Shown: positions 1 through 55,353, numbered from the stretch's first letter. The stretch: DNA of 64,000 nucleotides from Trypanosoma brucei (GCA_000002445.1 CP000068.1:1216001-1280000), one strand, 5' to 3'. The notes: generated from the letters alone by a model not told the origin. Program-made: numbers and translations.

Positions 1-216
1 TGCATGCACTTTAAGAGTGACATTTCCCTAAAACTTTCTGCAGAAGATATGATGGCGTGTTTGTTGGCTTTCAAGGGTGAGGTGTTCGGAGAGGTGGGTG
101 GACTGCGGTTTATTGAGCGCGCGTTTTTGCCGAAGAATAGGACCTATGCACTGAAGGCCACAGACTTCATGGCTAAAAGAGAGGGCAAGAAACATAAACT
201 GGATGAAGAAGTTTGA
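1..216 (+). CDS. Possible 3' end of a CDS that begins upstream of the window; product unknown. Stop codon at 214-216.
   Basis: Frame +1 is open from the window edge to the stop at 214-216. It is followed by a pyrimidine-rich spacer before the next gene. No recognisable motif. Confidence 0.25.
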   Translation, partial: CMHFKSDISLKLSAEDMMACLLAFKGEVFGEVGGLRFIERAFLPKNRTYALKATDFMAKREGKKHKLDEEV

Positions 217-750
217 GGTGCCTGGGGGCGATCAAAAATAAAGGAGCATAGTGCCAAGTAATGTGATTATCATGCACAATATATCACTGTTCCTCACCTT
301 GCGCGCACTCGCATATGAACTTGCTGTTGCGCCATATCTATGTGTGCTTGGGTGTTACTGAGAACCCTCGCTTTCCTTTGCTTGTTTGCCGATGCTGTTG
401 CTGCTGCGGTTCCTCCTGTCCATTTGTGTGAGTACTGCGTATAAATTAATGCGTAAATATATACGGCACTGAGGAGTTTGTATGTTTGTCTCTGTAGTTT
501 ATCTCACTGGGACTGAGTGTTTGATATTGTATGTTTTGTGTATTAGCGTGACAGACTTCCAACTGAGGCACGTTGCTCGGTACTTCACTAGGATCTATTT
601 TTCTCTTTTACCTATCCTACTACCACATTCCGTTCGTAGGGAATCAGTGAGGTAAATTAATTTGTTCATTATTATTTTTTAAATAGCGAGAAGGGAATCG
701 AACGAAGGCCTTTTAAGGAAAAGGAAGGGATTTTTTTTTCTGTTTGTGGA

Positions 751-3699: not shown

Positions 3700-3960
3700 A
3701 AACTCCGTACTGTTACTGTTCAACGTGTGTTCGAAACGGTGGCTGTGAGACGAGACAACCCGCAGGATGAGGGTTGCGGAGCCGGCAGAAGGAGATATCA
3801 CTTCGGCGAGGAGCACTAGTAATGAACCCTTTTTTCAAAAAAAAAAAGTTGTTTTGTTTGTGGCGCAAGCTGTTTTTTCCTTTTTTTAAAAAAAAAGGCG
3901 TAACGAATGGTATTATACGCTGGCGCTGCGTAGGCGTCGGTGGGGCTGGTGTTGTTAAAG

Positions 3961-4040
3961 TCGTTCTTTTCTCCCCGTCTAAGCGTTGGGGTTTTCTTTT
4001 CGGTGTCATTCCCATTCCCCTTCCCGGACATTTTTTTTGT
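3961..4040 (+). promoter_or_regulatory. Polypyrimidine tract and likely spliced-leader acceptor region upstream of the transporter gene.
   Basis: C/T-rich run (tcgttcttttctccccgtct...ttcccggacattttttttgt) followed by AG dinucleotides before the ATG at 4130. This is the standard kinetoplastid trans-splicing signal arrangement. Confidence 0.4.
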
Positions 4041-4129
4041 ACATGAACTTCAATGAACCGGCCGACACACGCAACTAACGGTTTGTTGGAGGGTGCTAGA
4101 AACAAGGTGCAGCCCAACGCGCGGCAGAA

Positions 4130-5497: not shown

Positions 5498-6319
5498 AGG
5501 ATTTGACACTGGCGCAACCATATCTCGAGCCGGAGTGTGGTTCAGGGAACAGGTAACAGCGGAAATTGAAGCAGGTGAAGTCCCACGATGTGTTTGCTAA
5601 GTTGCTGCTTGATGCGGTTCCACCCGCAGGTAGCCTCCATGAAGTTCACGAGCAGCCGAAAGAGTCCGCGTATGACAAATAGATGAGTGGCTTGCCACAG
5701 ATAATTTTTTTCCCTCTCTTTTGTGTTGGTCGTTTAAATAACGGTCACAAGGTGCGTTTGTCTGCGTAGCACTCCGGTGGAAATAATCTTATGTTGTGGC
5801 ACATATGGGGTGAAGTTGCTGAGCATTTGTATGAACAGTCCCGCGTAACGCTGGTTTTGAACTTGCCGTGTGTTGTCTTTTTTTTTTTTTTGAAGGTTTT
5901 GTTTATTCTACCCATTTTCCTTTATCGGTGATGTGGGCCAAGGTTCTCTTAGAAGATGCAATTCCGCTCAATCTCTTCTCTCTTTTTTTTTCGGTTTTTA
6001 CATGACTTTTTATCCGTTTATACGTGCACAGGGGTCCTGGCAGAGACGGAGCCGTGTGGTAGACTTCTGAGACGTTACTTTCTTTTGCCGCGGCTTCACA
6101 TTGTTATGCACCAATAAGATGGTATTTGGAATGTACCTAAATTGCAAGTCGTGTTTGCCACTGGCGCTACTCTTGTGTTTGTGCTTCGTGTGGAACGAAA
6201 GGACTGGAGAAGTGGCTTTGGTTCCATCTCTAGACCCTCTTCCAAATATTTAATCATTCAAGTTACTCCTTCATCTTCACCCACTGTGACTAACCAACAA
6301 AACAAAGAAACATAAAGAC

Positions 6320-8335
6320 ATGTCGTCTTCAGACATCGCGGTAAAGCGGATCCGTCGCCAATGGGAACCTGAAGATAAGGCATGGCGCGATGAGGCGCTG
6401 CAGCTGCCATGGGAGGAGGTCTCACCGCCGCTGCACAGCACCACCTTATTTGCCTTACGTAACGTCTTTTTCTTTTCTCACGCTACAGCAGTCCAGGCGC
6501 GCACAATTAGTGTCTTTTGTTCTTCGGGAAACAGTACCATAGTTGAAGCACCAACTGGTAGCGGGAAGACACTTGCCGTGCTCATTCCACTGATGGAACG
6601 TACAGTACGGGCGTGTGATGCTTTTGTTGCAGCGCACAACTTTCCGTTGCTACGGCGCGATATTATCGGCATCGTTCTGGCCCCGTCGCGCGTCCTTGCG
6701 GAACAAACGTTTGTGGTCGGTCGCAACCTTGCCGCACGCCTGCCGCATACAATACGGTTCGCCCTGTGCGACGGGGCGGTACAGTCAGCGGATGTAGTTC
6801 TAAAGAGTTTAAAGGCTGCGGCGCGTGGTGCGGGAACTTTTCTGGTGACAACGCCACGTGACTTAGTTGACTTTATTGCTGCTTTAAATACAAAGCGTCC
6901 TACAGAACACCCACCTGTAGCGAGAAGTGACGCCGAAACTAGCGAGGGCGGCCGGTCAGTGCACAACGAACCGGATGAACGGGAGGAGCTTCTGGCCGCA
7001 CAAGACGAGGAAACACTGCGACGCTACTATGAGAAGCGCGGTAGGCGTAAGGACACGAGCGAGAAAGACACTGGACACAACGTACAGCTGCGTGGCTGTC
7101 ACAATGAGCGGTTTGTACTTGTAGTGGATGAAGCGGATCTTGTCTTTCATTCAGTTGAGATGCGTGGAATCGTGACTGAGTTTGTGGCGACGCACGCTTA
7201 TTTGCAGCAACCACTGGACAAGCGCCTGAAGGAAGAGCGTGGTGAATCCACGTCAACATCGACAAATTCCTCGGAGAAAACCTTATCGATGGATTTGTCA
7301 TTTGTCGGCGCAACTGTGTCAACTTCGACGGAGGTACAGACTTATGCTGAGAGGGCGTGTGCTGCTCTCCAGTCCAAGTTACACAAAGTGGTGCTTAATA
7401 GCAATGAAGACTTTGTAACCCAACTGCAGAACCGCTATCTGCTTTGTGAGGCACATGACTTTTTACCGATATTGATTCAGCTAATGAACTTACACTCATC
7501 CAAGAAGCATTTTATCTTCTTTAACAGTCCCAAAACGCTCCGTTTTGTTGAAAAGTTGTTTTCCCGTTTGGTGGAGAGCCATCAAATGTTGTTGTGCATC
7601 AACCATGTGTTTGTTATGTACGAGGGAATGAACGAGCGCACCCGACTGGACCAGTACAATGCTTTCCTCAATCACAAAGCGGAGGTGAAGGCGGGCGCTA
7701 CAGATGGGAAGAAGGCTGCACTGCTCTCCGCAACTGAAAAAAAAAACCAGTTTTACACCAGCGGTTGGAAACGGGAAGGTCGACAACCCGGTGGCAGGGG
7801 TGCGATTCTTCTTTGCACGGATGTGGCTGCGTTTGGCTTGGATGTACGTGATGTAGATTATGTCTATCACTTTGAACCTCCAACAACTGTGCAATCGTAC
7901 GTGCACCGCATTGGACGTGTTGGGCGGATGGGTATGAGAGGAAGCAGTATACTGATTCTTCCTTGCTTCAGTACAGATTCCTCACTGACAGAAGCTCCCG
8001 AACGAAAGTCAACGAGCACGAGGTTTAACACATTAATCAACACGAAGAGCGCAACGTCCAGCATTCAGACACAGCAGGTATCAGAGGCTGACCTTAGCGA
8101 AGAGCGACGCCAGTATCTGAAAGAGTTGGGCGAGCGAAGTGAGTTGCAGCCGTGTTCCATTCCCCCTTTCGCCCCCATCGCGGCAACTGTACGAAACGTG
8201 ATTTCCCAGCACAATAAAATTAAGACATTGGCTCAGCAGGCGGCCATGTCCATGTGCACCGCTCCATCTTCTGTGGAAGGGGTGAAATCATGGTTTGACC
8301 CTAAACTCGCTCTCCACGCCCTCCTGCTTAACTGA
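6320..8335 (+). CDS. DEAD-box ATP-dependent RNA helicase, divergent, with long insertions.
   Basis: Motif I APTGSGKTLA, Ia LAPSRVLAEQ, II VVDEAD, SAT-like GATVST, V LLCTDVAAFGLDV, and VI HRIGRVGRMG are all present in the correct order. A large acidic/basic insertion lies between motifs Ib and II, and there is a long C-terminal tail. Confidence 0.85.
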   Translation: MSSSDIAVKRIRRQWEPEDKAWRDEALQLPWEEVSPPLHSTTLFALRNVFFFSHATAVQARTISVFCSSGNSTIVEAPTGSGKTLAVLIPLMERTVRACDAFVAAHNFPLLRRDIIGIVLAPSRVLAEQTFVVGRNLAARLPHTIRFALCDGAVQSADVVLKSLKAAARGAGTFLVTTPRDLVDFIAALNTKRPTEHPPVARSDAETSEGGRSVHNEPDEREELLAAQDEETLRRYYEKRGRRKDTSEKDTGHNVQLRGCHNERFVLVVDEADLVFHSVEMRGIVTEFVATHAYLQQPLDKRLKEERGESTSTSTNSSEKTLSMDLSFVGATVSTSTEVQTYAERACAALQSKLHKVVLNSNEDFVTQLQNRYLLCEAHDFLPILIQLMNLHSSKKHFIFFNSPKTLRFVEKLFSRLVESHQMLLCINHVFVMYEGMNERTRLDQYNAFLNHKAEVKAGATDGKKAALLSATEKKNQFYTSGWKREGRQPGGRGAILLCTDVAAFGLDVRDVDYVYHFEPPTTVQSYVHRIGRVGRMGMRGSSILILPCFSTDSSLTEAPERKSTSTRFNTLINTKSATSSIQTQQVSEADLSEERRQYLKELGERSELQPCSIPPFAPIAATVRNVISQHNKIKTLAQQAAMSMCTAPSSVEGVKSWFDPKLALHALLLN

Positions 8336-8648
8336 TGTGTCAGTGCTTCCAATGTGCACAAAAGACTGGCACAATAAGTGTTTGTCGTCTTGTTACTACT
8401 CTGTGAGGCTCGCCTCGCGCCTATTTCGATTAAAAAACTACACACCTCTTTCACGGTATGATAACGGTACTAAACACCTTGTTTTTCCTAATAACTCTTT
8501 TTTTCCCTACCAATATACCACCTCCCGTTGTAGCGGTTGCCAGTGAGTTGTGCCTAATACATATTCTTAACTGGGGGTGTGGTTTTTTGATTTTAATTTC
8601 ATCTTCTTTCACATAATATTTGTGTGATCAACATTAGAGCCAGATGTG

Positions 8649-9605
8649 ATGTACAGCTATAACAACATTATTGAAAAAAATGAGCCATGCAAAAAGGATG
8701 TGATTGAGAACCTTCAACTGAGCCTCTCACCAACCGGAGCGGTCAGACAATTTCGTGTGGACGAGCGCGTGGATGTGGTGGTGGTGGAGGGTTTTTTGTC
8801 GAATGACGAGTGCGACCAGCTCATCGCTGCATGTGAAAAGGTTGGATACACATTCTGGCGGCAAAAGGATCCTAACGCTGAAGGGGAAGAAGCTGGATGT
8901 TGCGGGGAAGCTGAAGCCCGTGCCTTCCGTGTGGTGGACACTATCGAAGCGAATTTCCCTACGTTGTCGCAGGTTCTCTCCTCACGAATAGAGAAGGTAG
9001 TGAAGCTGGATCCAAAAACGTTTTCTCCCTCTATGGAAGGGGCTGAGGAGTTATTTGCACGTGACCTTGAGGGTACATGGGTTCCCCAACAACTAGCACA
9101 AAACCTTTTGTTCGCGCGCTACGGTGCGGGTGGTCACTTCTCTCCGCATATCGACGGCTCCACCATCGTTGATATTAACACTCGGTCCCTTTACACTTTG
9201 CTTATTTATCTTAATGATTGTGAAGCAGGTGGAGAAACGGTGTTGTTTGACGGGGAACAGGCGGAGGTGCTGAAACGTGATGCAGAAAGTGGGAAATATA
9301 TTGGGAGGCGGGAGAACCGCATAGGTGCTGTGAAACCTACGAAAGGCACCGCTGCTTTCTTTTACTATGATGTGTTGCACGAGGGATCGCCTGTGGGAGA
9401 GGGCCACTCCAAGTACATCATTCGCGGTGATTTTCTGTACCGTCGTAACCCACCGATCCTAACAGCGGAGAACGATATGAAGGCGTTTGAATTGTATGAA
9501 AAGGCGCGCGTAGCCGAAAGTAATGGAGACGTTTTCGCAGCGTGTGAAATGTTTCAGCGGGTGCGAAAGCTCTCCAAAGGAGTAGCAGAGTTATACCAAC
9601 TGTGA
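8649..9605 (+). CDS. 2-oxoglutarate/Fe(II)-dependent oxygenase, prolyl-4-hydroxylase-like.
   Basis: HxD...H iron-binding triad: GGHFSPHIDGS (H-x-D) and a distal His in YYDVLHEGSP, followed by a basic residue (KYIIRGDFLY) positioned for 2OG binding. The ORF-track start at 8646 is GTG; the first ATG is at 8649. Confidence 0.6.
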   Translation: MYSYNNIIEKNEPCKKDVIENLQLSLSPTGAVRQFRVDERVDVVVVEGFLSNDECDQLIAACEKVGYTFWRQKDPNAEGEEAGCCGEAEARAFRVVDTIEANFPTLSQVLSSRIEKVVKLDPKTFSPSMEGAEELFARDLEGTWVPQQLAQNLLFARYGAGGHFSPHIDGSTIVDINTRSLYTLLIYLNDCEAGGETVLFDGEQAEVLKRDAESGKYIGRRENRIGAVKPTKGTAAFFYYDVLHEGSPVGEGHSKYIIRGDFLYRRNPPILTAENDMKAFELYEKARVAESNGDVFAACEMFQRVRKLSKGVAELYQL

Positions 9606-9949
9606 GCTAAGGAGCCGCTTCACTACTTTGTTTTATTTTTCGTTTCGGCGCGGCCGTCCGGGTGGGGTACAAGATATATTGCTGGTAGCCCACCCTCACA
9701 CGTTTTACAAAGCAAGTTTACGAGTAACAATGGGTGGGAACCGCCCAAAAAATGGAAAGAAGACTTACATGCGGCGGGCGGAAAGGGGGTTTTATGTTGT
9801 TTTTTTTTTTGCACTTTAGCGTGGTGTTAAGAGTCAATCAAGGGGGTTCTGTGAACGGTTTTAACGAGAACATATTACAGCACTAAGACAAGTCTAAATA
9901 GTGAACCCCGTAAGTTTTTAAAGGACTGTTATTTGATCCTCCAATCCCT

Positions 9950-9956
<7 letters not shown>

Positions 9957-9989
<33 letters not shown>
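9957..9989. repeat. (TA)n microsatellite, about 16 units.
   Basis: Perfect tatata... run in the spacer upstream of the methyltransferase gene. Confidence 0.95.
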
Positions 9990-9991
<2 letters not shown>

Positions 9992-10065
9992 TCGCCTTCT
10001 GATTATGAGGTTCGCGCATTACTTTGCTTACATTCCTTCACCACAACCCTATCGTCAACCACAAG

Positions 10066-11172
10066 ATGGAGTCCGGGGGGTTTGCAGAAGACTATGACCC
10101 AAATAGCTCTTTGCATCATCAGTACTATGAAAGTTATTCAGATCTTGCTGTGCACCGCTTGATGCTGGAGGATGCGCAACGCATGTCGTTTTATCGCAAA
10201 TCCATAGAGCAAAGTGCATCCATTGAAGGAAAAGTGGTGGTAGACGTGGGTTCCGGCACGGGGATTCTCTCGATGTGGGCGGCACGCGCTGGAGCGAAGC
10301 ACGTCTTTTCCATTGAAGCATCATCGCTGAGTGAATTTCAAATCGGAGTCGTCGAAGACAATGATCTTTCGACGAAGATAACGGTACTCGGAGACACAGT
10401 GGAGAATATTATTGCCGGTGGTGTAGCGAATTTCGTGAACCGTCACAAGGCTAAATTGGGGAAATGTGGCGTAGCAGTGCTTCTATCCGAATGGATGGGG
10501 TTTTATCTGTTCCATGAAGGTATGCTTCCCTCCGTCATCCGTGCGAGGAACTTCTTTCAAGATGTCAACGCCGCCCTGGGGGTTTTGCAGCCTATTGAAA
10601 TGATCCCTGAGCGCGCCACTGTTTTCGTCGCCCCTATTACTTGCAAACCGTATTATGTGCAGCGATACAAAAACTTTTGGCGTGATGTTGACGGCTTGGA
10701 TTTTAGTCGCTATGGACGGATAGAATATGAAGTATATCTCGAACAGGCGTCACCTCTCGTTGAGTGTTTACCACCCTTGTGCCTTCTCCACGAAGGTCTT
10801 TCCCTGATTGAGTTGAATTTATCAACAGTTCAGGAGGAGGTACTCACATCATTGCATAATACCGTCCATTTCGACTTGAAGGAATCCGCTGAGTTTCAGC
10901 AACACGCCAGGGAAGCGGGTAGTGAAGGACGGGTTTCTGTGGACGGTTTTACCGTATGGTTTGATGTAAGTTATGGTGCCCACACACTTAGCACATCACC
11001 TCGCAGCCCTTCCACTCACTGGAAACAAACCACCATCCTTCTTCCAAGAGAAGCCCGAAACGAAGAACTCGTGTCCTTCCCCGTAGAGGGTGGCGAGCTC
11101 GGTGTGGAGATGCATATTAGTGCATCAGATAAAACCCTTCGCTTCTACACCATTGAGCTCGAGTTAAAATAA
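10066..11172 (+). CDS. PRMT6: Type-I protein arginine N-methyltransferase, probably PRMT6.
   Basis: AdoMet motif I VVVDVGSGTGILSMWAARAGA; post-I HVFSIEAS; double-E loop and THW-like LLSEWMGFYLFHEGM. The ORF-track start at 10024 is a TTG; the first ATG is 10066, giving 368 aa. The PRMT6 assignment rests on my memory of a 368-aa trypanosome PRMT6 and is not verifiable here. Confidence 0.75.
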   Translation: MESGGFAEDYDPNSSLHHQYYESYSDLAVHRLMLEDAQRMSFYRKSIEQSASIEGKVVVDVGSGTGILSMWAARAGAKHVFSIEASSLSEFQIGVVEDNDLSTKITVLGDTVENIIAGGVANFVNRHKAKLGKCGVAVLLSEWMGFYLFHEGMLPSVIRARNFFQDVNAALGVLQPIEMIPERATVFVAPITCKPYYVQRYKNFWRDVDGLDFSRYGRIEYEVYLEQASPLVECLPPLCLLHEGLSLIELNLSTVQEEVLTSLHNTVHFDLKESAEFQQHAREAGSEGRVSVDGFTVWFDVSYGAHTLSTSPRSPSTHWKQTTILLPREARNEELVSFPVEGGELGVEMHISASDKTLRFYTIELELK

Positions 11173-11538
11173 CGTCGTAATCAATCTTTTTTGTTTTGCT
11201 TACAAATGCGTGGTGGAGCTGATGGTCGAAGGAGTGCTTACGCAAATGAGGATGGTTGTATGCATACAGAAAAGGATTGTACATGAGACATCGCACTCGG
11301 CTATTAATACATGATCCCCTCACCCCTTCTTTTCTCCTTTTGCTCCATTCTCTCCTTTTCCCCTCATGTCATGGCCTTTCAATATGTGTTCGTTCGTGCA
11401 GTTTGTACAAGAGGAGCAAGTACACAAGGAAATTTTATAGCTCGGCAAGAAACTGAAGAAAAAATATATAGAAAAACAAAACAGGAAATAAACCAGGCGG
11501 AAACATTTATTTTTTTTCTTTTCTAGAGAGGGCAGCAT

Positions 11539-12863: not shown

Positions 12864-13988
12864 ATGCTCTCTGTGAGTCCGCCACTTCGGCGTTACCGCC
12901 TTTTCCATCCGCGGCGGGAGGCGATACCGATGCATATGTGCCCTGCTAAGACAATATTTCCGCTCATTAACAGCAACAATCTCCTTGTGAAGACGCGTAA
13001 CAGTTGGGAGGACTTCACTGGGAGAAAAGAGTTCGATGAAGATCACCCACTTCCAGTTGTTGGGTCGCGACTAAATGGCCGCACTACCCAACATAAATGG
13101 AATCACTGGGATCAATACCTCAACCCACAAATCACACAGTCGATTAAAGACTTAACACCAACTCCCGAATATGTGGGAATGCGCTGCGGCCACAATATGA
13201 TCAAAATGGGATGGATGAAAATAGGCGGGAGCTGGAAGTATTCAAGGGGATACAATGACAGACGCCGAGTGTTCGCAAGAGGGCAATGGCAGGAACGTAA
13301 AATGACTCCCCGCTTCATGCTTGCCCCTCGTGTCTCAGCCGGTGGCCCTCGCAATCGTTACGAAGGAAAGTTGGTGTTTTCCCCACTGAGGCTCAGCAAA
13401 CTTCTTTGGGCCATCGATACAGGTCGAATAAACCCCAATGAAGTGATAACACTGTACCACCTGCGGCAGGCCAATGTTGTGGGGGAACGCGAAATTGTGT
13501 GGCCTGGATTTGTGCTTATAAGCAATGGTGTGCGCCGTGTACCTTACCCCATTCATATCGAATTACAAAATGCATCGGCTGAGAGCATTCGTCTTATTGA
13601 AGAAGCGGGTGGTTCCTTCACGTGTGTATATATGACGCATGAAGGTCTATACCAGGAACTGCATCCCGAGGAATATCCAATATTTATGGACCAGGAACTG
13701 CCGGAGCGCCGCGGCCTCGAGAGTTTAGCGACAAACCCCAGCAAACGTGGTTGGTTGACACGCTGGTATGAAGACAGCAGTAAATACGCACATCCCGCCG
13801 CGGGGCGCCGCTATTCTCATTATCTGAAACCGCCGACCGAACGAGATTTCCCCGCCACAGTGGAGGAATATGAAATGGTGAAACATCATCAAAAATGGCA
13901 CCTCAATCAACCGGGAACCGGAACGTTGCTTCCTTGGCATTCTTACAACACGGCGGATTTGGTAAAGCGAGCGGCAGGTCGTTTGTAG
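12864..13988 (+). CDS. Mitochondrial ribosomal protein uL15m-like.
   Basis: C-terminal block NASAESIRLIEEAGGSF resembles the bacterial L15 C-terminus (…ARAAIEAAGGKIE). The central LSKLLWAIDTGRINPNEVITLYHLRQANVVG resembles the L15 core. There is an N-terminal basic, presequence-like region. Overall similarity is weak. Confidence 0.5.
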   Translation: MLSVSPPLRRYRLFHPRREAIPMHMCPAKTIFPLINSNNLLVKTRNSWEDFTGRKEFDEDHPLPVVGSRLNGRTTQHKWNHWDQYLNPQITQSIKDLTPTPEYVGMRCGHNMIKMGWMKIGGSWKYSRGYNDRRRVFARGQWQERKMTPRFMLAPRVSAGGPRNRYEGKLVFSPLRLSKLLWAIDTGRINPNEVITLYHLRQANVVGEREIVWPGFVLISNGVRRVPYPIHIELQNASAESIRLIEEAGGSFTCVYMTHEGLYQELHPEEYPIFMDQELPERRGLESLATNPSKRGWLTRWYEDSSKYAHPAAGRRYSHYLKPPTERDFPATVEEYEMVKHHQKWHLNQPGTGTLLPWHSYNTADLVKRAAGRL

Positions 13989-16900
13989 AGATAGATGCCG
14001 CCGATTTTTTCTTCTTTTTGCGTTTCGCCTTGCCACAATATGCGCGGCTGGGCAGTCTACACATGGAACTGAAAGGAACTTTTGCGCTTTGGGAGGGTTT
14101 GGGGTTGTTGACACTTGGTTTGTTGTCGTTGTTGTCGTTGGTATGGCGAAATAATGTGTTTAATTGTTTTCGGTCGTTCGCTCACATTCCCATATCCTTT
14201 CGGCAAAAAAGTACAGGAGTGGTGCGGGAAGAAATCTTTGTTTTTTTTTTTTTGAAAACTTGCGTCGGGAATGCTTTGGGCTTACGTTTTTTCTCGGATT
14301 GGTAACCTTCACCCCTCTTTTTTTCTATTACTCAGCAGTCGTCTGCAAGAGGGTGTAACTTTTAAGTGCCAAACATGCTTGACTCCGTACGTCCACCGCT
14401 AACGGAAGTCGAGTGGTTGACCAGTGTCAGAGCTTTTATGGAGTTTGTTCGACAAAAGGGGCCAACTCCTTTCCAATTTGATTTTTGACCTGCTCGAAAC
14501 CCCAGACTAATTTATCACGTGGATGGTCAACTGACCATTGAAAACGGGAATCTAATGGTTTATTTTGACCAACAGCATAAAATGGAGATGGCTTCATGAA
14601 GACAATCAATGGTAAGCTTCACATTTCCAAGGAATGCGGATTTCCCCATGGAAAGCGAAGAGGCGCGAGCAGCTCTACAGACGGAGTGGGCGACAACATT
14701 GGGAGCCACAGAATCAGCGCTTTATTATCAGTTTGAAAGTGCATGTGCCCAAATGGCTGATGAAAATTTTCGGGTGCAACCGAATGCAAGCGAACTGCTG
14801 CTTTGGTGCATGCAGCAACAACTAACGCAAATGCAAGAAAAAATAAAACGGCAGGCCTAAACGATTGAAGCGTTGCAGAAACAGATGACGGCTCCAGAAG
14901 GGAAAAAAAGCTAAAGAAGAAAAGAGCCAGCAACGTCCCGGAAATAATGATGATGGAAAGTTTAAACTTATGGACCAATGGGTATTGGAGGGACACACGG
15001 AACAACAGGCGACAACAACTGCTCCTCTTCCCAGAGTGGTAAGTATGAGAGGTGCTTTCCAGGGCTTACGAGAGAAGGCGTCGCCGTTTGGGATAAGAAG
15101 AGAGGAAAAGATGCGCTCCTTTGATGGCGCAGTGGATTACACGAAGCGCAGGGGTCCCAATCAACTTATCACGGCTTACCAATATGTGTTCCCCGCGACT
15201 GTATCACCGGACCCAGTGTACAGGGAAACACGGAAAATCTTTGTGTCATGGCTTATGGGACCGCAGAATGGAATTATATCAGAGGGGTATTAACGATTGG
15301 GAAAACACTTTTATACGCAGTTGCGCTTGATTCAAACTGTTTAAGACAACCCTGGGGTGAGAATGCAGGATATCCGCGATGCTATAGAATTCCCTCACAA
15401 AAAGGACTACATATTCCTGCAATCCGCTCTAAAAGCAAAGAAACAGAAACAATCGATTCTACTGAACCAGTAACGATGTTACACATGCGGTCGAGTGGGG
15501 CATTACAGTGCAACCTTTAGGATAAACAAGACGGCATCAGAAAAGAGACCAAAAAGATACAACAGACCCCCGAAGCAATGAACTCAAACGCCCTTCATGA
15601 TAGCGTAGCTAAAGTTTCACAAAATAAATGCCTTGTGGACCATTTTGCAGTGGAAAAACATAAGCCGTGCAGGAGGAAATAACCCGAAAAAAGGCGAGAG
15701 CAGCATGGCACATGAAAATAAAACATTCCGCAACAGCCGATCAACGGATGGGGAGGGGTTTTCCACAAGGAGGTAGAGTGGCTCTGCTAACGGTTTTACA
15801 CCGAAAAACAGCAGCAAAATCTATCAACGGAGTAACTATTGTTATTCCAGTTCCCACGCGAAATGATCCATACATCTTGGCGTTGGCCTCAGAAGCCAAC
15901 AGAATAGCAATGTGAATGTGGGAATGATTTCCCTTCCGTGGATTTGACAGAGGATGATGCAAGCAGCGAGTAAACAATTTGATGAGGTTTGGAGCATTAT
16001 GAATAGCACAGATGATGTGGAAAGAGAGAAAGTATCAAACAAGGAGTCTGAAATTGCACATTGCAGAAAAGTATGCCCAAATAATGAAGCAGCCGCGTAT
16101 CATTGGCCCAGTTTCAGAGAGACACGACAGGATGAGTTGTGTGCCATTATTTGTGATGGAAGAAAAACAGAATTGGAAGAAGGCGTTTGTTTATTGCATG
16201 ACCAAAGGCTAAAAAGAGCAGGGATGATTATGAGGCATATCTCCCATTGGGTCACTTTTCCCAGTATTTAAATACTCTCCATGACCAGTCTGTGGCATTG
16301 TTTGATCTAAAGTCATTCCTCTCCCAAGTGAAGTTACCTGAGGATATTCGGGCAGGGTTCCGATACGTTAGCAAAAATGAGGAATTAGTGAATTTGAATC
16401 GACTCCCCATCAGTTAATAAAGAGAGCCCTGGAATTTTACACACCATTACAAAGCTCTTTTTAGAAGGCGCCGATGTCGTGAAGCTGCAGCAGGCGACCC
16501 CTGAAAGATTGAGGACTCAAACATGGATATGCAACATATGTATTAGTGTGAGGCGCATGACGTGGTTAAATGTCGTGGAAACAAAATAGTTACGAGCATG
16601 GAGGAATGTGGGGCACACTATCATTGGTGACTCACAAAAGATGACACAACAATGCGATTTTATTGGAGTTTTAGTTTAAACATGAAAACCAGACAGTATG
16701 GCTGGGACAACGAAAGTGATACAACAATTCCGAGTATCCCTTGCTATGTGAAAAAAACTACCATAGAATAAATGGAAACTGTTGTATCACGCATGATGTA
16801 CGTGACAGCAGTGAGAAAACAATAGCTTTCTTAATACTACTGCTACTTATTTTTTTAAATGGTAGCATGATATTTGTCATTATGCAATATGGTCCTGATG

Positions 16901-18180
16901 CGACCCAATAATTTAACCGTGCCACCACACACAGACACATACACATACACATATGCGCTACAGCTAAAAAAAAAATGGATGTGCATTTTGATAAAGAAAA
17001 CACCAATGAATTCGCCGCGAGTTGTAGCAACTGTGACCATGATGGTAACGGATTCTTCCACGCAAAGATGATGGGGACGGTTTTACAATTCCTCAATTCG
17101 GAAAAGAAGTTCTTAACTGAAAGTGGTGCTTGTGAAACTGCGGTCCAGTTGTGAATATTTGCCTTCTGAAAGAGATGGAAGAGTCTCGCACATGTATGCG
17201 TGAACGACACGGCGGTGATGCATAATATTATTATTATTAAAAATATGGTGGGAATTGCAACACACATTCCAATGCCATGGTTCATGAGGCTTTAGCCATA
17301 GATGGAGTGTGTTGCAAAATGGAAAGATTAATTTTTCACAGAGTTACGTGACCTCAGGAGGATAACCTCGCGGGTGCCCAAAGGTCAAGCAAAGTGGAGC
17401 ACGGGAAGTGAGTGAAGTGCGCTTTCAGACACTTCCACATCGTAAATCATAGTGGTGGTTAAATGATTATATCGTTTTCTCTTTTTTTTTTTCAGATATG
17501 ACTCACATCTAATCAAAGCACATTGTTTGAGAGGAAACATTTTTTTTTCTCTTCCTTGTTATTCTTTCTATTAACTCTGTTAGAGGGAAATCAGGCTAGA
17601 CCATTCCTTCTATTTGATACTAGAAGCCATTGACCGGTTTTGTCGATTGTCATCTCCTCTTCATGCTCTTTTCCTATTATTATTTTTCTTTTTTTTTCAG
17701 GGCGGGATGTGCGTCTGCAGCGTCATTTAGGCCGTCTTTAACCACTGAACGAGGCAAAAGAGGTTTTGAAACAAGGTTAAACGCAGACAACCTTCTTCGC
17801 AATGGGAAAAAAAAAATTGAACACCACCGAGTGGCGTCAGTGATGACGCTGCACTTTGGAAAACCGGTGCATTATATTTGGGAACAAGGGTAGAAGGCGA
17901 CATAGAGCTTATTTGTTTGTTTTTAGTGCCCTGTTCCTTTTTGTGCAGTGGCAACAACTCTTCACTTGGTAGGAATACTCCACCAATTCACACAAGCACA
18001 TTAGCCTCCGGTAGAGAAGGTGACGAGACTCATTTAACCAACAAGTGACGTATTCCTGTAGCGGCTGCCGCATTTTTCGCAGCTCTGATCGTGGCGGTGC
18101 AAACGTGGTTTAGTGTAACCACATCTTTTCTGCAACATTCAGAAAAAGAAAGAGAGATAGTGAAAGCATGTTCTTTATCT

Positions 18181-18190
18181 GGGGGGGGGG
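18181..18190. repeat. G10 homopolymer followed by aGGGaGG.
   Basis: Direct read; it sits inside the gene-poor interval. Confidence 0.9.
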
Positions 18191-20330
18191 AGGGAGGCGT
18201 CCGGTGACGCCTTCATGCTTCTCCCAGTTTCTTCGGGCTTCTATATTTAAGCAGGTTGATCTACAAAGTACCAAAAGTCTAGCGGTGGCCGCTTGTGTGC
18301 GTTATCCCCTCTTAACCCAAGTTGTTTTGTTTACTGGTTTTGGTGCAGTGTGAGAGTTTGTGGATGTATGCGCACGTCTTCCACTTAACCTCACTTCCAT
18401 GAGGAAGTTACCGCTGCGGCCAGCTGGCTTCGGGATCGAGCTTCCTCGTGCAACATTTGTGTGGTCTTAGTTTCCTATAATTTTCCAAAGTTTGCGTGTT
18501 CCGTAACGTTGCCCCTAGCAGTCGGTAGCGGATTTTCCTTTGTCTCTTCATCCTCTTCCGGGTTAACTGCTGCGTTTTCCTCATCATCATATTTATGTTC
18601 TGTTGCGCTTTTCTTCCTAACGCAGCCGACCTATTTCCGCTGCCTGCAGCATCACTTTTAACTGCTCCCCGACATCTCCTTGGAACATTGAAATCGATGC
18701 GAGAACTCAAACCTCGCGCTGGGAATTACCTCCACAACGTTGGGCATTTAATCCTTCCCTCACCCGGGGTTTTGCGGTCGTCTCGTAATCCTTCCTTGCT
18801 ACCAACCATTGATGGAAGCCGCGTTTCAACAACTGATCGTGTGTGAGATCTTTCGTTTTTTTTTTGTTCCTTAGTGTTCCCATCGAAGCTGCGACGCGAC
18901 CGCTGGGCTAATGTTAGCGCGAGCCCCACCACAGCCGTCGCTTCCGTCTCCCGCCTCCCCCCGTTTGAGCATATCTGAACCACTTTTCGCTGCGCCTAAT
19001 CTCCTCCAAATTGACCCCCATGAACCAGGTGTCGCTCCTTGTTTCCTCATCCAGTGGCCGCAGCGTGTCTGCGGTAATCGCTTAAAACGGACCTCATCCA
19101 GGGACTTTTCCTTTCGCGCGTTGAAAATTTGGGCCCCTTGTCTGCCAATGTTTCTTCCGCTCGTTCCCGCACATTGGATAAGGAACAAACCGTTCGGTTA
19201 TTTCAGCTGCGTTCTTCCCTGTGCGGTGCCGGTTTGTCCAACGAGTGGTGTGGGAGCCCAATTGACATGTCCGATAGGTCTCTTGTAACAGCTGCGATGC
19301 TATGAAATTAGGCTGATGAAAAACGCCTAAGCAAGGTCTGTAGCGAGTCACCCTTCGTGGCCAGGAGCACATACGCATTCGTTGCCACATTGTTGACAAT
19401 ATTACGAACTTCTCAACAAAACGTCCCCAGCCCTCACTTCAGTTTGTCACACGGGACCGTTCGTCTCGATACTAGTCTGGATGTTCCCATCATGCTCGAC
19501 GAAGAGCGATAAGCAAAGACCGACGTCGGGAGGAATGAAAGGGCCACGTCGCATCTCGGCGTTTTTTTCGGGAGGGGGAGCCCTGCGTGCTCACGGGGCG
19601 TTAACTATTTCGACAGCTGCACCGCCGACGCTGTCACCATTTTTTAAAAAACCTACAGGGTTTTAGCTGCCGGTTCGCGCCGGCGAAAATGGCCCCGGCG
19701 CCGATGTGAGATAGTTGCTTTAGGGGAGATGATTTATTGCTGAAAAGGAATGTGGGTGGAAACAAAAGGATCGTCTAAATTTCAAAGGGTATAATCAACA
19801 AAGCATGAGAATGAAAAATTTATCAGAATGTCCTTTCAACCCCTTAGATCGGAATTTGCTTTTTTTCAGGACTCACGTTTGTACGAATGGCCGCGCCCGA
19901 AAACGAAAAGGAGTTTTAGTTACAGGCTGTAAGGGCACGGGCATTCGCTGAGTTGACAAACAGCGAATGGGGACGAAGGGTCTATTTGGCCTTTAATTCT
20001 CCAATTTTTTAAATTCGTTTGTGCACGTGTGCAAGGCACATTTTTTTCCTTTTTCCTGGCACCGCGCAGCGCAGCAAATACTTGAGCGGTGCTTCAGGGG
20101 AGGTAAATCCTCCCGAGAAGATAAAGAAGAAGGCCTCTGTTTCATCTGAGAACATAAATTAAGTGCAAGCAAGTGCAAAATAAATACATGGCGAGGCGCC
20201 ACAACTAGAGCACACACTGGAAGAAGGAGGGGCATGTATCCTGTTAGTCTAACCCATCATTTTCCTCTCTTTTTTTCCGGTATGGTTTTAGAGAGTCTTC
20301 AAAAAGGTCGTAAAGGCGAAGGTGTGAAAC

Positions 20331-21764
20331 ATGGCACAGGGCAAAGCTGCTTTTTTACTAATATTGTGTGTTTGCTCCTGCTGGCACCTCTCTTCAGCGG
20401 ACACAGAAGCGATCAAGGAAACAGCAATCAGAGAAGTGTGTGAGCTTTCAAAAACATTGAAAGGCACACCCTTTGCCATAACTCAGAGATGGAAACATAT
20501 CGAGGCCTTGATTTCGACCTTTGAGAGGTTGCTGCGAAGACTGGAGTTAATTAACCTTCTGTGCTGTGAAGACGAAGATAGCGTAAGCATTTTGAAACTC
20601 TACACCCAAAGCCAGATTGCAAGTTTAGAAGTGCTAATGAAGGCTCTTATGGAAAGGGGACCGAACGCCGCGGCGTTCGCGGCATACGCAGCAGGGAGGT
20701 TGGATGAGTTTGTTGCCGTATTCACGCAGTCGGTGGGGAAGACACCGCGAACAAACGCGTGCGTAATTGCGGATTCCGGCATGAGAAGGTGGGACCAGGC
20801 AGCGGCGAATGGATGTGAGCATAACGTAGTGGGAAACGCGGCTCAGAATTTCCTTGATTTGGAAGTCTTATTGAAAACGACATTGTTGACAAGAGGAAAC
20901 CAAAAGGGAGAAAGCAAGCAGTGCCCACTAACAAAGAGCGATTTGAGTGGCTATGCGACGGTGGACGACGCCCCTGACAGAATAAAGTGGGCAGGCGGGC
21001 TTTTGACCGTACACAAAATGTATGGATGGAAAGAAGACGGATGGTCTACAAACGGAAGGAACGTCGAATTCATCAAAGAGGCGGCAGAACAATTCAAAGA
21101 AATTAAAAAAGTCCTCGAGAAACAGCTGCCGAACGGCCTTGACAGCATCGACGCACTAAACGCTTTTTTGAAAAGGGAAGAGCCGGACGCGATGATGAAA
21201 GATGCAATCAAAACGCACCAGGGGTGGGAAGAAGAGAAAGACGATAAAACGATAATTGAGAAAATCAAGGAGATATTTGGAATTGGGGAACCATGTGCAA
21301 AGATTGAATTTATCGAAACGCTTATAAGGACTAATGTTTCTGCTAGAGAATCGGGCTGCACAAAGCAAATTGACTTGTTTCAACTCACTACTCGGCAAAT
21401 GGAAGAAGTAAAGGAACGCCGCCTCGATCAATTACGTAAAACGAAGACAGAAGCGGAGAATTATCCACGGGACATGGCAAAATTGTCGGCATTAAAAACT
21501 AATACAAACACAAAGCAAGGTGAGTACGGAGAGTGCCAGTTTCTATGCAAGCGATACAAGAACGCTAAAGCAGAAAACGAGGCAACGGATGCCGCACCCA
21601 ACTCTCCGGCAGCAGCAAGGAAGTGTCGTGGGAAAACGGAAAACGATTGCAAAGATGAGTGCAAATGGGACGGAAATGTCTGCAAAAATTCGGACGAAAC
21701 ATCAGATTACTCCAGAGTGTGTTACTCCCCTCTTTTTCCAGTCTTACTTCTTTCCTTATTTTAG
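20331..21764 (+). CDS. VSG-related (variant-surface-glycoprotein-like) protein in a chromosome-internal position.
   Basis: N-terminal signal peptide MAQGKAAFLLILCVCSCWHLSSA. A long helical N-domain with scattered Cys. A C-terminal Cys motif CRGKTENDCKDECKWDGNVCKNS typical of VSG type-2 C-terminal domains. It ends in the hydrophobic tail SPLFPVLLLSLF, like a GPI-addition signal. 477 aa. Confidence 0.6.
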   Translation: MAQGKAAFLLILCVCSCWHLSSADTEAIKETAIREVCELSKTLKGTPFAITQRWKHIEALISTFERLLRRLELINLLCCEDEDSVSILKLYTQSQIASLEVLMKALMERGPNAAAFAAYAAGRLDEFVAVFTQSVGKTPRTNACVIADSGMRRWDQAAANGCEHNVVGNAAQNFLDLEVLLKTTLLTRGNQKGESKQCPLTKSDLSGYATVDDAPDRIKWAGGLLTVHKMYGWKEDGWSTNGRNVEFIKEAAEQFKEIKKVLEKQLPNGLDSIDALNAFLKREEPDAMMKDAIKTHQGWEEEKDDKTIIEKIKEIFGIGEPCAKIEFIETLIRTNVSARESGCTKQIDLFQLTTRQMEEVKERRLDQLRKTKTEAENYPRDMAKLSALKTNTNTKQGEYGECQFLCKRYKNAKAENEATDAAPNSPAAARKCRGKTENDCKDECKWDGNVCKNSDETSDYSRVCYSPLFPVLLLSLF

Positions 21765-55291: not shown

Positions 55292-55353
55292 ATTGTATGT
55301 GCTGTTTGTGCTTGTAGTTTGCTTTCTGTACATCAGAACATACACATGTAACG

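What the first reader, a model, noticed from the sequence alone, without database searches (positions are those of the whole stretch)
13989..20330. A 6.3-kb interval without a convincing gene inside an otherwise gene-dense polycistron
Gene density elsewhere is roughly one gene per 2 kb. Between the uL15m-like gene and the VSG-related gene there is no ORF longer than 175 aa, and those that exist are low-complexity or hydrophobic junk. The segment 14400-16300 is purine-rich on + and reads like decayed coding sequence, with many short in-frame runs broken by stops. Further on there is a G10 run (18181) and CA-rich or AT-rich patches (16921-16950 and 16800-17300). Candidates are a degraded surface-gene or retroposon relic, a long non-coding RNA, or an unusually long UTR. 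Relics of a VSG or ESAG pseudogene next to the intact VSG-related gene would be coherent.
Basis: seen in the sequence. Interest (0 to 1): 0.5.

Follow-up and report, generated by a model that had tools for sequence, protein, structure and literature searches.

The report
Dead VIPER retroelement plus known terminator
The 6.3-kb "empty" stretch on Trypanosoma brucei chromosome 5 holds the decayed remains of a VIPER retrotransposon followed by non-coding DNA that contains an already published RNA polymerase II stop site, marked by base J and histone H3.V, which keeps the downstream VSG-related gene silent.

Summary
Window 13989-20330 has no ORF above 175 aa, lies between Tb927.5.3980 (mitochondrial uL15) and Tb927.5.3990 (atypical VSG) of T. 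b. brucei TREU927 chromosome 5, and is kept at the same length in T. b. gambiense and T. equiperdum.

The interval has two parts.

1. 14375 to about 17430 (+ strand) is a degenerate VIPER retroelement.
- The gag-like ORF1 (14375-15581) carries six premature stops, one frameshift and a broken CCHC box.
- The tyrosine-recombinase ORF is missing, through a deletion of about 945 bp near 15910.
- Fragments of reverse transcriptase and RNase H follow, spread over many frames.
- Homology to VIPER copies of T. congolense, T. grayi, T. theileri, Crithidia and Leptomonas is strong (E 1e-13 to 1e-49).
- There is no similarity to VSG or ESAG genes.

2. 17431-20330 shows no coding signal.
- Published "TTS" RT-PCR primers map at 18616-19524.
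- This makes the interval the Sabatini laboratory's model PTU-internal Pol II termination site, dependent on base J, H3.V and the PJW/PP1 complex, which silences Tb927.5.3990 and Tb927.5.4000.

One point appears to be new. The RT/RH part of the relic is 11-12% divergent between subspecies, against about 2.5% for its flanks. This suggests ectopic gene conversion.

The main function is already known, so interest is low to moderate.

The parts
13989..14374 (+). Sequence downstream of uL15m (Tb927.5.3980). It is probably 3'UTR followed by polypyrimidine tracts (T13 at 14241-14253; CT-rich 14305-14332) and an AG just upstream of the relic's ATG.
   Evidence: Sequence read directly; T runs. The roles as UTR and splice acceptor are inferred, not shown.
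14375..15581 (+). Relic of VIPER ORF1 (gag-like). ATG at 14375; premature stops at 14486, 14597, 14858, 15291, 15342 and 15471; frameshift in the A7 run at about 14901-14907; terminal stop at 15579.
   Evidence: phmmer of 14901-15290 against 1.84 billion proteins: T. congolense P0055 at 3.5e-10 and T. theileri CCHC protein P0056 at 3.8e-7. tblastn: P0055 40% identity over 230 aa, E 4e-49; P0056 aa 1-106 on 14375-14692 and aa 270-416 on 15093-15515. T. grayi L014 440-1646 is collinear. Stop depletion reached by 0 of 300 shuffles. Lesion coordinates.
15477..15518 (+). Broken CH-box (zinc knuckle), CYTCGRVGHYSATF. The pattern CX2CX4HX4 is kept, but the last Cys is replaced by Phe.
   Evidence: Pfam zf-CCHC E 0.009, below the family cut-off. 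Intact homologues read CYRCGRIGHYSSTC and CFRCGRIGHYSTTC. The same broken motif is present in gambiense and equiperdum.
15900..15920 (+). Deletion junction. About 945 bp that encode the tyrosine recombinase in T. congolense and T. grayi VIPER copies are missing here.
   Evidence: Collinear blocks: window 15706-15909 matches L012 2312-2494, and window 15912 matches L012 3441. In T. grayi, window 15921 matches L014 1925 and window 16175 matches L014 3119. The YR HMM hits the extra segments of L012, L013 and L014 (1e-11 to 7e-26) but nothing in the window (best E about 17-24 in the gap).
15706..17065 (+). Relic of the VIPER reverse transcriptase, broken across at least six reading-frame changes.
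   Evidence: T. congolense ORF265 (52% identity over 80 aa at 16175-16414, E 3.5e-26) and ORF145 (16748-17065, E 2.7e-13). T. theileri and T. grayi blocks. HMM built from Leptomonas VIPER RT/RH rows of PMC6681497 file 12: iE 8e-14 at 16163-16417 and 0.015 at 16506-16676. RT translated from the C. fasciculata 'putative complete VIPER copy': E 3e-19.
17122..17430 (+). Remnant of the VIPER RNase H domain and the 3' end of detectable element homology.
   Evidence: T. grayi L014 4042-4179, which lies inside its RH domain (HMM positions 220-335, iE 5e-16), matches 17122-17280 at E 5.8e-4. blastn: 17389-17428 matches L014 4329-4368, 82.5% over 40 nt. This is weaker evidence than for gag and RT.
15991..17430 (.). 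Hyperdivergent tract that coincides with the RT/RH part of the relic. TREU927 differs from gambiense and equiperdum by 11.3-11.7% here. The gag relic differs by 2.3-2.6%, the post-relic DNA by 2.5% and the CDS by 0.4-1.4%.
   Evidence: Three-way MAFFT alignment and counts. Boundaries are sharp in 100-bp bins, at about 16000 and 17450.
17431..18615 (+). Non-coding zone after the relic. It holds three strong polypyrimidine-AG tracts (17470-17495, 17537-17560, 17675-17700), an A10 run (17807-17816) and the G10AGGGAGG run (18181-18197).
   Evidence: No Pfam, Rfam or tRNA hit. No significant stop-codon depletion on either strand; top-5 open-frame sum on the - strand P=0.03, uncorrected for multiple tests.
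18616..19524 (+). Published 'RT PCR TTS' amplicon (primers DLR5+ and DLR7-), used to detect nascent read-through RNA at the chromosome 5 PTU-internal termination site. It lies in the most pyrimidine-rich + strand segment of the gap (61-63% C+T).
   Evidence: Primer sequences come from PMC11229358 supplementary file 7. They map exactly at 18616-18636 (+) and 19501-19524 (-). Composition. The termination function is taken from PMC4150806, PMC7055916 and PMC11229358.
19525..20330 (+). Region upstream of the VSG-related gene, with polypyrimidine tracts (19851-19866, 20043-20057, 20260-20278) before the ATG at 20331.
   Evidence: The role in trans-splicing of Tb927.5.3990 is inferred.
20331..21764 (+). 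Tb927.5.3990, the atypical/VSG-related gene. It is the first gene silenced by the upstream termination site.
   Evidence: Pfam Trypan_glycop 7.5e-76. Accessions AAZ11510/XP_845069. qPCR primers for 3990 map at 20839-20936. De-repression on loss of J, H3.V, PNUTS or PP1-1 is reported in PMC4150806, PMC7055916 and PMC11229358.
22342..22853 (+). Tb927.5.4000, a hypothetical protein gene. It is the last gene of the unit and is also silenced. The convergent strand-switch lies directly after it.
   Evidence: qPCR primers for 4000 map at 22763-22853. ORF. The next gene, 23171-24085, is on the - strand.

Best explanation
The interval is a composite of two things, and neither is a hidden gene.

(1) A decayed VIPER retroelement. 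At the end of the synteny block that stops at uL15m, a VIPER retrotransposon inserted on the + strand before the Trypanozoon subspecies diverged. Its order is gag-like ORF1, tyrosine recombinase, then reverse transcriptase/RNase H. It has since decayed. ORF1 has six stops and a frameshift, the recombinase was removed by a deletion of about 945 bp, and RT/RH is shattered over many frames. What remains (14375 to about 17430) is transcribed passively, if at all, as part of the polycistron.

(2) A known terminator. The remaining 2.9 kb of non-coding, pyrimidine-rich DNA contains the termination zone where RNA polymerase II stops before the last two genes of the unit. According to the published experiments, thymines here are converted to base J and the nucleosomes carry H3.V. 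JBP3 of the PNUTS-Wdr82-PP1-1 complex reads base J. PP1-1 is then proposed to dephosphorylate Pol II, elongation stops, and Tb927.5.3990 (VSG-related) and Tb927.5.4000 stay nearly silent in bloodstream forms. Loss of J, H3.V or any complex subunit gives read-through RNA across 18616-19524 and de-represses the two genes.

Shown here: the anatomy and homology of the relic, its age, the absence of any other coding signal, and the identity of the locus with the published site. Taken from the literature: J and H3.V occupancy and the termination function. Inferred: the exact stop position at or just upstream of 18.6 kb, and the reading that the 11-12% divergence of the RT/RH tract reflects ectopic gene conversion with other VIPER RT/RH copies of the genome.
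For: Identity of the locus:
- Exact protein look-ups give T. b. brucei TREU927 chromosome 5, with consecutive accessions AAZ11509 (uL15m) and AAZ11510 (VSG, atypical).
- Published primers for Tb427.05.3980.3990.4000 and the 'TTS' amplicon all map collinearly, at 12864-12998, 20839-20936, 22763-22853 and 18616-19524.

Termination function, from the literature:
- The same site is used for PNUTS, Wdr82 and JBP3 (PMC7055916) and for PP1-1 (PMC11229358).

Relic:
- Stop depletion is confined to the + strand.
- gag homologues were found by exhaustive phmmer and come from T. congolense, T. theileri and T. melophagium.
- Collinear gag-RT-RH blocks match T. congolense, T. theileri and T. grayi elements, which themselves carry YR and RT/RH by VIPER HMMs.
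- Independent VIPER references hit the RT: Leptomonas HMM at 8e-14 and C. fasciculata at 3e-19.
- Four of the six premature gag stops and a frameshift near 14900 are shared by three Trypanozoon assemblies, and the gap length is conserved at 6342, 6369 and 6359 bp.

Synteny end:
- Leishmania has ASF1 after uL15m, close to one end of the assembled chromosome record.
- T. vivax has other ORFs, with RVT_1 and RNase_H fragments.
- The T. cruzi contig ends there.
Against: - Base J, H3.V, Pol II occupancy and transcript ends could not be read with these tools, so the stop position inside the gap rests on primer positions and on figure legends. The two papers describe the amplicon slightly differently: 'flanking' the site in 2020 and 'immediately downstream' of it in 2024.
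- The experiments were done in Lister 427, while the window is TREU927. The primers match with 0-1 mismatch.
- The relic shows no 3-base periodicity and only weak host-like codon usage. The coding-relic call therefore rests on stop statistics and homology.
- The RNase H remnant is weakly supported (E 6e-4).
- VIPER split direct repeats were not found, so the true element ends are unknown.
- The donor for the proposed gene conversion was not identified.
Confidence: 0.85

Rival explanations
1. The dead VIPER element, perhaps together with the sense-strand G run, is itself the cis-element that nucleates base J and H3.V. This could work through repeat recognition or small RNAs. The terminator would then be an exapted retroelement rather than merely its neighbour.
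For: - The relic ends about 1.2 kb upstream of the TTS amplicon.
- H3.V is reported to be enriched at other retroelements and siRNA loci such as SLACS and ingi (PMC4721609).
- Genes silenced by PTU-internal termination are typically VSG, ESAG, RHS and pseudogenes, that is, regions rich in repeats (PMC4150806).
- In Leishmania, J insertion occurs near G-rich, G4-prone sequence (PMC4344527).
- G10AGGGAGG at 18181 is the longest + strand G run in 64 kb. The only other G/C runs of 10 or more (22944, 26031) place G on the sense strand of the convergent unit near its end.
Against: - No occupancy data were read, so the J/H3.V summit could lie entirely in the unique pyrimidine-rich DNA.
- No paper in the searchable library links VIPER with H3.V.
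- Three G runs are too few for statistics.
- The G run varies in length between subspecies (G10 against G8).
- Many TTS in T. brucei have no known retroelement.
Confidence: 0.15
2. The interval encodes one or more functional long non-coding RNAs, or an unusually long regulatory UTR, and that is why it is retained at constant length.
For: - Several strong polypyrimidine-AG signals lie inside the gap (14241-14335, 17470-17700, 18845-18874, 19851-19866). These could give trans-spliced, polyadenylated RNAs.
- Gap length is conserved among three Trypanozoon genomes.
Against: - There is no Rfam family and no tRNA.
- Sequence divergence across the gap (2.3-11.7%) is at or above the intergenic level and well above the CDS level, so there is no sign of constraint.
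- The subspecies are too close for length conservation to mean much.
- Transcription is reported to stop inside the interval in wild-type cells.
Confidence: 0.1
3. The interval holds a VSG, ESAG or RHS pseudogene, or an ingi/RIME/DIRE relic.
For: The neighbour is a VSG-related gene, and such regions often carry these pseudogenes (PMC4150806).
Against: - tblastn of the VSG-related protein and of all long window frames (stop-to-stop, 120 aa or more) against the gap gives nothing below E 0.027, and blastn of the gap against the rest of the window gives nothing.
- Pfam finds no Trypan_glycop, ESAG, RHSP, RVT_1, RNase_H or endonuclease domain in any frame tested.
- The coding relic is fully accounted for by VIPER gag and RT/RH.
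Confidence: 0.05
4. An intact gene is present but masked by sequencing errors in the reference.
For: Two of the TREU927 stops (14858, 15471) are sense codons in gambiense, and the frameshift lies in a homopolymer run.
Against: - Four gag stops are shared by TREU927, gambiense and equiperdum.
- All three assemblies need a frameshift near 14900.
- The RT part changes frame at least six times and lacks the recombinase ORF.
Confidence: 0.01

Closest known systems
PTU-internal RNA polymerase II termination sites of T. brucei (base J / H3.V / PJW-PP1; Reynolds 2014, Reynolds 2016, Kieft 2020, Kieft 2024)
   Same: It is the same locus, not just a similar one. The termination site upstream of Tb927.5.3990 and Tb927.5.4000 on chromosome 5 is the representative example in those papers, and their primers map inside the interval. 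Like the other examples (cSSR 3.3, 7.3, 7.7, 9.2), it lies before the last genes of a unit, and the silenced genes are VSG-like or hypothetical.
   Different: Nothing differs in kind. The papers read here do not describe the sequence content of the interval (the VIPER relic, the G run, the pyrimidine-rich zone).
VIPER (vestigial interposed retroelement), the tyrosine-recombinase retrotransposon of trypanosomatids (Vazquez 2000; Lorenzi 2006; Ribeiro 2019, PMC6681497)
   Same: - The gag-like ORF1 ends in a CX2CX4HX4C box and is followed on the same strand by RT and RNase H.
- RT motifs match (IAWPKAK..YEA.LPL.H.S.YL....LFDLK..F.QV.LP, then W-I-x-N-I).
- The relic is collinear with the T. grayi, T. 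congolense and T. theileri copies.
- It is degenerate, like the T. brucei copies that Ribeiro et al. tabulate, each of which they mark 'degenerated'.
   Different: - The recombinase ORF is deleted and no split direct repeats are detectable.
- The last Cys of the CH-box is mutated.
- Ribeiro et al. found 0 Gag hits in T. brucei using VIPER Gag protein queries. Here a nearly full-length ORF1 relic is recognisable through T. congolense, T. theileri and T. grayi homologues.
T. congolense truncated VIPER copies embedded in the cathepsin-L (congopain-like) tandem array (contig CAEQ01001928, locus L012)
   Same: Closest sequence relatives found: 40-52% amino-acid and about 64% nucleotide identity in gag and RT.
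   Different: They keep the recombinase segment, are repeated at least twice in tandem together with a Peptidase_C1 gene, and are much less decayed. They are not orthologous in position.
Retroelement accumulation at trypanosomatid synteny breaks and strand-switch regions (general knowledge from the TriTryp comparative genome papers)
   Same: uL15m is the last gene shared with Leishmania, T. cruzi and T. vivax. After it, each lineage has different content, and T. vivax carries RVT_1 and RNase_H fragments of another element.
   Different: This is a context, not a mechanism. It does not explain termination.

Membership tests
VIPER retroelement (DIRS-order, tyrosine-recombinase retrotransposon) | gag-like ORF1 with a CX2CX4HX4C box | tested here: met
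   14375-15581 is homologous over its full length to T. theileri P0056 (421 aa) and to ORF1 of the T. grayi and T. congolense copies (E 1e-15 to 4e-49). The box is at 15477-15518 with its last Cys changed to Phe. The ORF is non-functional: 6 stops and 1 frameshift.
VIPER retroelement (DIRS-order, tyrosine-recombinase retrotransposon) | Tyrosine recombinase ORF2 between gag and RT | tested here: not met
   An HMM built from 8 VIPER YR rows (PMC6681497 file 13) gives no hit in the gap (E about 17-24 or worse there; best anywhere in the window 2.7). It does hit the T. congolense, T. theileri and T. grayi relatives at 1e-11 to 7e-26. The collinear maps show about 945 bp missing at about 15910. The window copy is therefore a recombinase-deleted derivative and is not filed as a complete member.
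VIPER retroelement (DIRS-order, tyrosine-recombinase retrotransposon) | VIPER-type reverse transcriptase | tested here: met
   Leptomonas VIPER RT/RH HMM: iE 8e-14 at 16163-16417 and 0.015 at 16506-16676. C. fasciculata VIPER RT: 42% identity over 85 aa, E 3e-19. T. congolense ORF265 and ORF145: E 3.5e-26 and 2.7e-13.
VIPER retroelement (DIRS-order, tyrosine-recombinase retrotransposon) | RNase H domain after RT | tested here: inconclusive
   Only T. grayi RH (L014 4042-4179) matches 17122-17280, at E 5.8e-4. The Leptomonas HMM gives a collinear but non-significant hit (E 45). Pfam RNase_H does not hit, but it also misses the RH segment of the T. grayi relative (L014 3937-4284).
VIPER retroelement (DIRS-order, tyrosine-recombinase retrotransposon) | Split direct repeats (A1 at the 5' end; B1-A2-B2 at the 3' end) | tested here: not met
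   The repeat finder and self-blastn of the gap give only low-complexity T-rich matches. This is expected for an old copy but leaves the element ends undefined.
PTU-internal Pol II termination site (base J / H3.V dependent) | Identity of the locus with the published chromosome 5 site upstream of Tb927.5.3990 and Tb927.5.4000 | tested here: met
   Accessions. Eight published primers map collinearly, with the 'RT PCR TTS' pair at 18616-19524. The Fig 5 legend of PMC4150806 names genes 3980, 3990, 4000 and 4010.
PTU-internal Pol II termination site (base J / H3.V dependent) | Enrichment of base J and H3.V at the site | not testable with these tools
   Reported in PMC4150806 Fig 5 and repeated in PMC7055916 and PMC11229358. 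No track data are available here.
PTU-internal Pol II termination site (base J / H3.V dependent) | Loss of J, H3.V, PNUTS, Wdr82, JBP3 or PP1-1 causes read-through and de-repression of downstream genes | not testable with these tools
   Experimental results in PMC4150806 (run-on, RT-PCR, qPCR), PMC7055916 and PMC11229358.
VSG / ESAG / RHS pseudogene | Detectable similarity to VSG, ESAG or RHS proteins or Pfam domains | tested here: not met
   tblastn of the neighbouring VSG-related protein and of all other long window frames (stop-to-stop, 120 aa or more) finds nothing. Pfam finds nothing in the stitched 14375-16270 + strand reading, the three + frames of 16250-20330 and the ten open frames tested (eight of them on the - strand).
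ingi / RIME / DIRE non-LTR retroposons | APE, RVT_1 or RNase_H domains, or RIME/ingi terminal sequences | tested here: inconclusive
   No Pfam RVT_1, RNase_H or endonuclease hit.
Known structured RNA genes (snoRNA, tRNA and others) | Match to an Rfam covariance model or a tRNA fold | tested here: not met
   cmscan at gathering thresholds gives 0 hits in the 64 kb. ARAGORN finds 0 genes.

The most novel reading that the evidence does not exclude
A fossil VIPER retrotransposon, possibly together with the adjacent sense-strand G10 run, has been co-opted as the signal that attracts base J and H3.V. It would thereby create a polymerase II terminator inside a polycistron, which keeps a VSG-related surface gene switched off. 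The 11-12% divergent RT/RH tract would then record continuing recombination between this terminator and other VIPER copies.
Probability: 0.15. Interest if true: 0.6.

Novelty: already known. Interest (0 to 1): 0.3.

Why it matters
How trypanosomes choose where to place base J and H3.V, and hence where Pol II stops, is still unresolved. This interval is the standard assay site for that question. Its sequence content can now be stated:
- a 3-kb recombinase-deleted VIPER fossil;
- three polypyrimidine-AG tracts;
- the longest + strand G run in the 64-kb window;
- a 1.2-kb pyrimidine-rich zone that contains the assay amplicon.

This gives concrete elements to delete or transplant.

The result also corrects a possible mis-annotation, because there is no hidden gene and no VSG/ESAG pseudogene. 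In addition, a T. brucei VIPER ORF1 relic is recognisable here, although a published survey found no Gag hits in this genome. Otherwise the finding is ordinary: junk plus a terminator that has already been published.

Tried and rejected
1. A word-indexed homologue search with a 631-aa stitched reading of 14375-16270 found nothing. Homologues appeared only with the exhaustive phmmer on a stop-free 130-aa piece.

2. I thought by eye that I could see VIPER tyrosine-recombinase motifs at about 15770 and 16400. The YR HMM did not support this. The 16400 region is in fact RT, and the recombinase is deleted.

3. Pfam on the stitched reading, on the + frames of 16250-20330 and on ten open frames gave only a sub-threshold zf-CCHC hit. 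Pfam also fails on the annotated ORFs and the RNase H segment of the related VIPER copies, so that negative was uninformative for VIPER.

4. Rfam and tRNA scans gave nothing.

5. Tandem, direct and inverted repeats gave only low-complexity matches, with no LTR or split direct repeats.

6. ORFs downstream of uL15m in T. vivax show no similarity to the gap.

7. The codon-usage log-odds profile and 3-base periodicity gave no clear coding signal in the relic.

8. Exact look-up of seven gap ORFs found none in the protein collection. The three small ORFs called in gambiense look like gene-caller noise.

9. There is a weak excess of open frames on the - strand of 18300-19500 (top-5 sum P=0.02, but stop count P=0.32). 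It was not pursued because no homologue search was left, and I treat it as chance.

Full report
**Observation**

Between the uL15-type gene (12864-13988; Pfam Ribosomal_L27A 1.6e-10) and the VSG-related gene (20331-21764; Trypan_glycop 7.5e-76) there is no ORF above 175 aa on either strand. The + strand of 14.4-16.3 kb is purine-rich. The G10 run at 18181, the (CA)n patch at 16926-16953 and the low-GC patch at 16.5-17.25 kb are all present.

Against dinucleotide-preserving shuffles, 14376-16300 has 76 stop codons in its three + frames where 96 +/- 6 are expected, a value reached by 0 of 300 shuffles. The - strand and the rest of the gap do not differ from shuffles.

**Where the window comes from**

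Exact-sequence look-ups identify T. b. brucei TREU927 chromosome 5. uL15m is AAZ11509 and the VSG (atypical) is AAZ11510, which are consecutive accessions, so nothing is annotated between them. The same interval is present in T. b. gambiense DAL972 (6369 bp) and T. b. equiperdum (6359 bp).

**What the coding relic is**

A word-indexed search with a stitched translation found nothing, and Pfam gave only a sub-threshold zinc knuckle. An exhaustive phmmer search with the longest stop-free piece (14901-15290) did find homologues: a multi-copy T. congolense protein (P0055, E 3.5e-10), a T. theileri 'CCHC-type domain-containing protein' (P0056, 421 aa), and T. melophagium proteins.

By tblastn, P0055 aligns to 14898-15578 at 40% identity over 230 aa (E 4e-49). 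P0056 aligns with its N terminus at 14375-14692 and its C terminus, including the CCHC box, at 15093-15515. The whole of 14375-15581 is therefore one decayed gene of about 400 codons. Its features are as follows:
- ATG at 14375, preceded by polypyrimidine tracts and an AG.
- Premature stops at 14486, 14597, 14858, 15291, 15342 and 15471.
- A frameshift in an A7 run near 14904.
- A CH-box, CYTCGRVGHYSATF, whose last Cys has become Phe.

In T. congolense the homologue is followed by two ORFs, of 265 and 145 aa. These match window 15912-16414 (52% identity over 80 aa, E 3.5e-26) and 16748-17065 (E 2.7e-13). A six-frame comparison with T. congolense, T. theileri and T. grayi loci gives one collinear series of blocks from 14372 to 17280, plus a 40-nt DNA match at 17389-17428.

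These relatives are bona fide VIPER elements. HMMs built from the published VIPER alignments (PMC6681497 files 12 and 13) hit them with YR at 1e-11 to 7e-26 and with RT/RH at up to 3e-64, in the order gag, YR, RT, RH. The same RT HMM hits the window at 16163-16417 (iE 8e-14) and 16506-16676 (0.015). RT translated from the C. fasciculata 'putative complete VIPER copy' hits 16160-16673 at E 3e-19.

The YR HMM finds nothing in the window. The collinear maps show that about 945 bp carrying the recombinase in T. congolense and T. grayi are missing at about 15910. My earlier by-eye match to recombinase motifs was wrong.

The RT part changes frame at least six times. The RNase H remnant (17122-17280) is supported only at E 6e-4. 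No split direct repeats are detectable.

Four of the six premature gag stops, and a frameshift near 14900, are shared by the three Trypanozoon genomes. The insertion and most of the decay therefore predate their divergence. There is no similarity to the neighbouring VSG-related gene or to any other gene of the window.

**The rest of the gap**

17431-20330 has no Pfam, Rfam or tRNA match and no significant stop-codon depletion. It contains:
- three strong polypyrimidine-AG tracts at 17470-17700;
- A10 and G10 runs;
- one of the most pyrimidine-rich + strand segments of the window, at 18250-19250.

**What the interval does**

A text search for Tb927.5.3990 led to the Sabatini laboratory papers.
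- Reynolds et al. [quoted passage not shown] The genes are labelled Tb427.05.3980.3990.4000 and .4010. Nuclear run-on signal is lost between two probes, and loss of J gives read-through and up-regulation of 3990 and 4000.
- Kieft et al. 2020 (PMC7055916) use the same 'representative PTU internal termination site' to show dependence on PNUTS, Wdr82 and JBP3.
- Kieft et al. 2024 (PMC11229358) use it to show dependence on PP1-1.

The 2024 oligonucleotide table gives the primers. In the window they map as follows:
- 3980 qPCR at 12864-12998.
- 'RT PCR TTS' primers DLR5+ and DLR7- at 18616-18636 and 19501-19524.
- 3990 qPCR at 20839-20936.
- 4000 qPCR at 22763-22853.

The interval under review is therefore that termination zone. 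The read-through amplicon lies in its pyrimidine-rich 3' part, about 1.2 kb after the end of the VIPER relic. J and H3.V occupancy and the exact stop position could not be checked here and are taken from the papers.

**Context**

uL15m is the last gene of a conserved block. In Leishmania it is followed by ASF1, about 16-26 kb from one end of the assembled chromosome record. The T. cruzi contig ends there. In T. vivax it is followed by unrelated ORFs that include RVT_1 and RNase_H fragments of a different element, and then by HpHbR genes on the other strand. The gap thus sits at a synteny break where lineage-specific surface genes and retroelements have accumulated.

**A point not found in the papers read**

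In a three-way alignment, TREU927 differs from gambiense and equiperdum by the following amounts:

| Region | Divergence |
|---|---|
| CDS | 0.4-1.4% |
| gag relic | 2.3-2.6% |
| Post-relic DNA | 2.5% |
| 15991-17430 (RT/RH relic) | 11.3-11.7% |

The boundaries of the divergent tract are sharp, and it coincides with the RT/RH part of the relic. A dead element should decay uniformly. RT/RH is the VIPER part with many paralogues in T. brucei: 58 tblastn hits, against 0 for Gag, in PMC6681497. Ectopic gene conversion is therefore the simplest reading, but the donor was not identified.

**Verdict**

The important function, a published base J/H3.V-dependent Pol II terminator that silences the VSG-related gene, is already known.

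The untested possibility that the VIPER fossil or the G run nucleates the terminator is the only reading that would raise interest. No paper in the searchable library links VIPER and H3.V.

Noticed in passing
window 15991-17430: Between TREU927 and gambiense or equiperdum there is a sharp 1.4-kb tract of 11-12% divergence, and gambiense differs from equiperdum by 3.5% there. The tract coincides exactly with the RT/RH part of the VIPER relic, while the flanking relic and spacer are at about 2.5%. Possible explanations are ectopic gene conversion, an old haplotype or an assembly effect.
   Followed up: partly
window 18181-18190, 22944-22954, 26031-26040: These are the only G/C homopolymer runs of 10 or more in the 64 kb. 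Each puts the G run on the sense strand of the polymerase approaching the end of a transcription unit: G10 before the TTS amplicon, and C11 and C10 (G on the - strand) in or next to the convergent strand-switch. Three cases are too few for statistics.
   Followed up: no
L012 (T. congolense CAEQ01001928) 1-11462: Truncated VIPER copies (gag, YR, partial RT) are repeated in tandem, at least twice on this contig, together with a cathepsin-L-type (Peptidase_C1) gene in a unit of about 6.1 kb. At least seven proteins at 90% identity or more lie on several contigs. A retroelement fragment is thus being amplified as a passenger of a protease gene array.
   Followed up: partly
L011 (T. theileri NBCO01000012) 8001-9266: An intact 421-aa VIPER-gag-like CCHC protein (TM35_000121560) sits alone between NTF2-domain and lipid-desaturase genes. 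No ORF is called in the 1.1 kb after it. It could be a solo or domesticated gag gene.
   Followed up: no
L001 14917-15252 and L002 13203-13808 (T. vivax): RVT_1 (E 2e-6, just under the cut-off) and RNase_H (E 2.5e-8) ORFs lie a few kb downstream of uL15m in T. vivax. They were not hit by the VIPER HMMs, so a different retroelement occupies the same synteny break. HpHbR genes follow on the opposite strand.
   Followed up: partly
window 54989-61969: A tandem array of about ten 736-bp units lies on the - strand. Each unit has a small ORF with a histone fold (weak CENP-T_C hit, E 2.7e-4), probably a histone gene array. It explains the other stretch of the window that lacks long ORFs.
   Followed up: partly
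window 26055-26873 (-): The second-to-last gene of the convergent unit belongs to the GARP family (PF16731, 4.4e-51). Both units therefore end in surface-protein genes around this strand-switch.
   Followed up: no
window 19255 (between 19250 and 19300): gambiense and equiperdum carry about 32 bp here that TREU927 lacks, inside the published TTS amplicon. The amplicon length should therefore differ slightly between strains.
   Followed up: no
window 18300-19500 (-): Four overlapping ORFs of 85-105 aa lie on the - strand, and there is a weak excess of open frames (top-5 sum P=0.02, but stop count P=0.32). Composition resembles - strand coding sequence. No Pfam hit was found and no homologue search was left. 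This is probably chance.
   Followed up: partly
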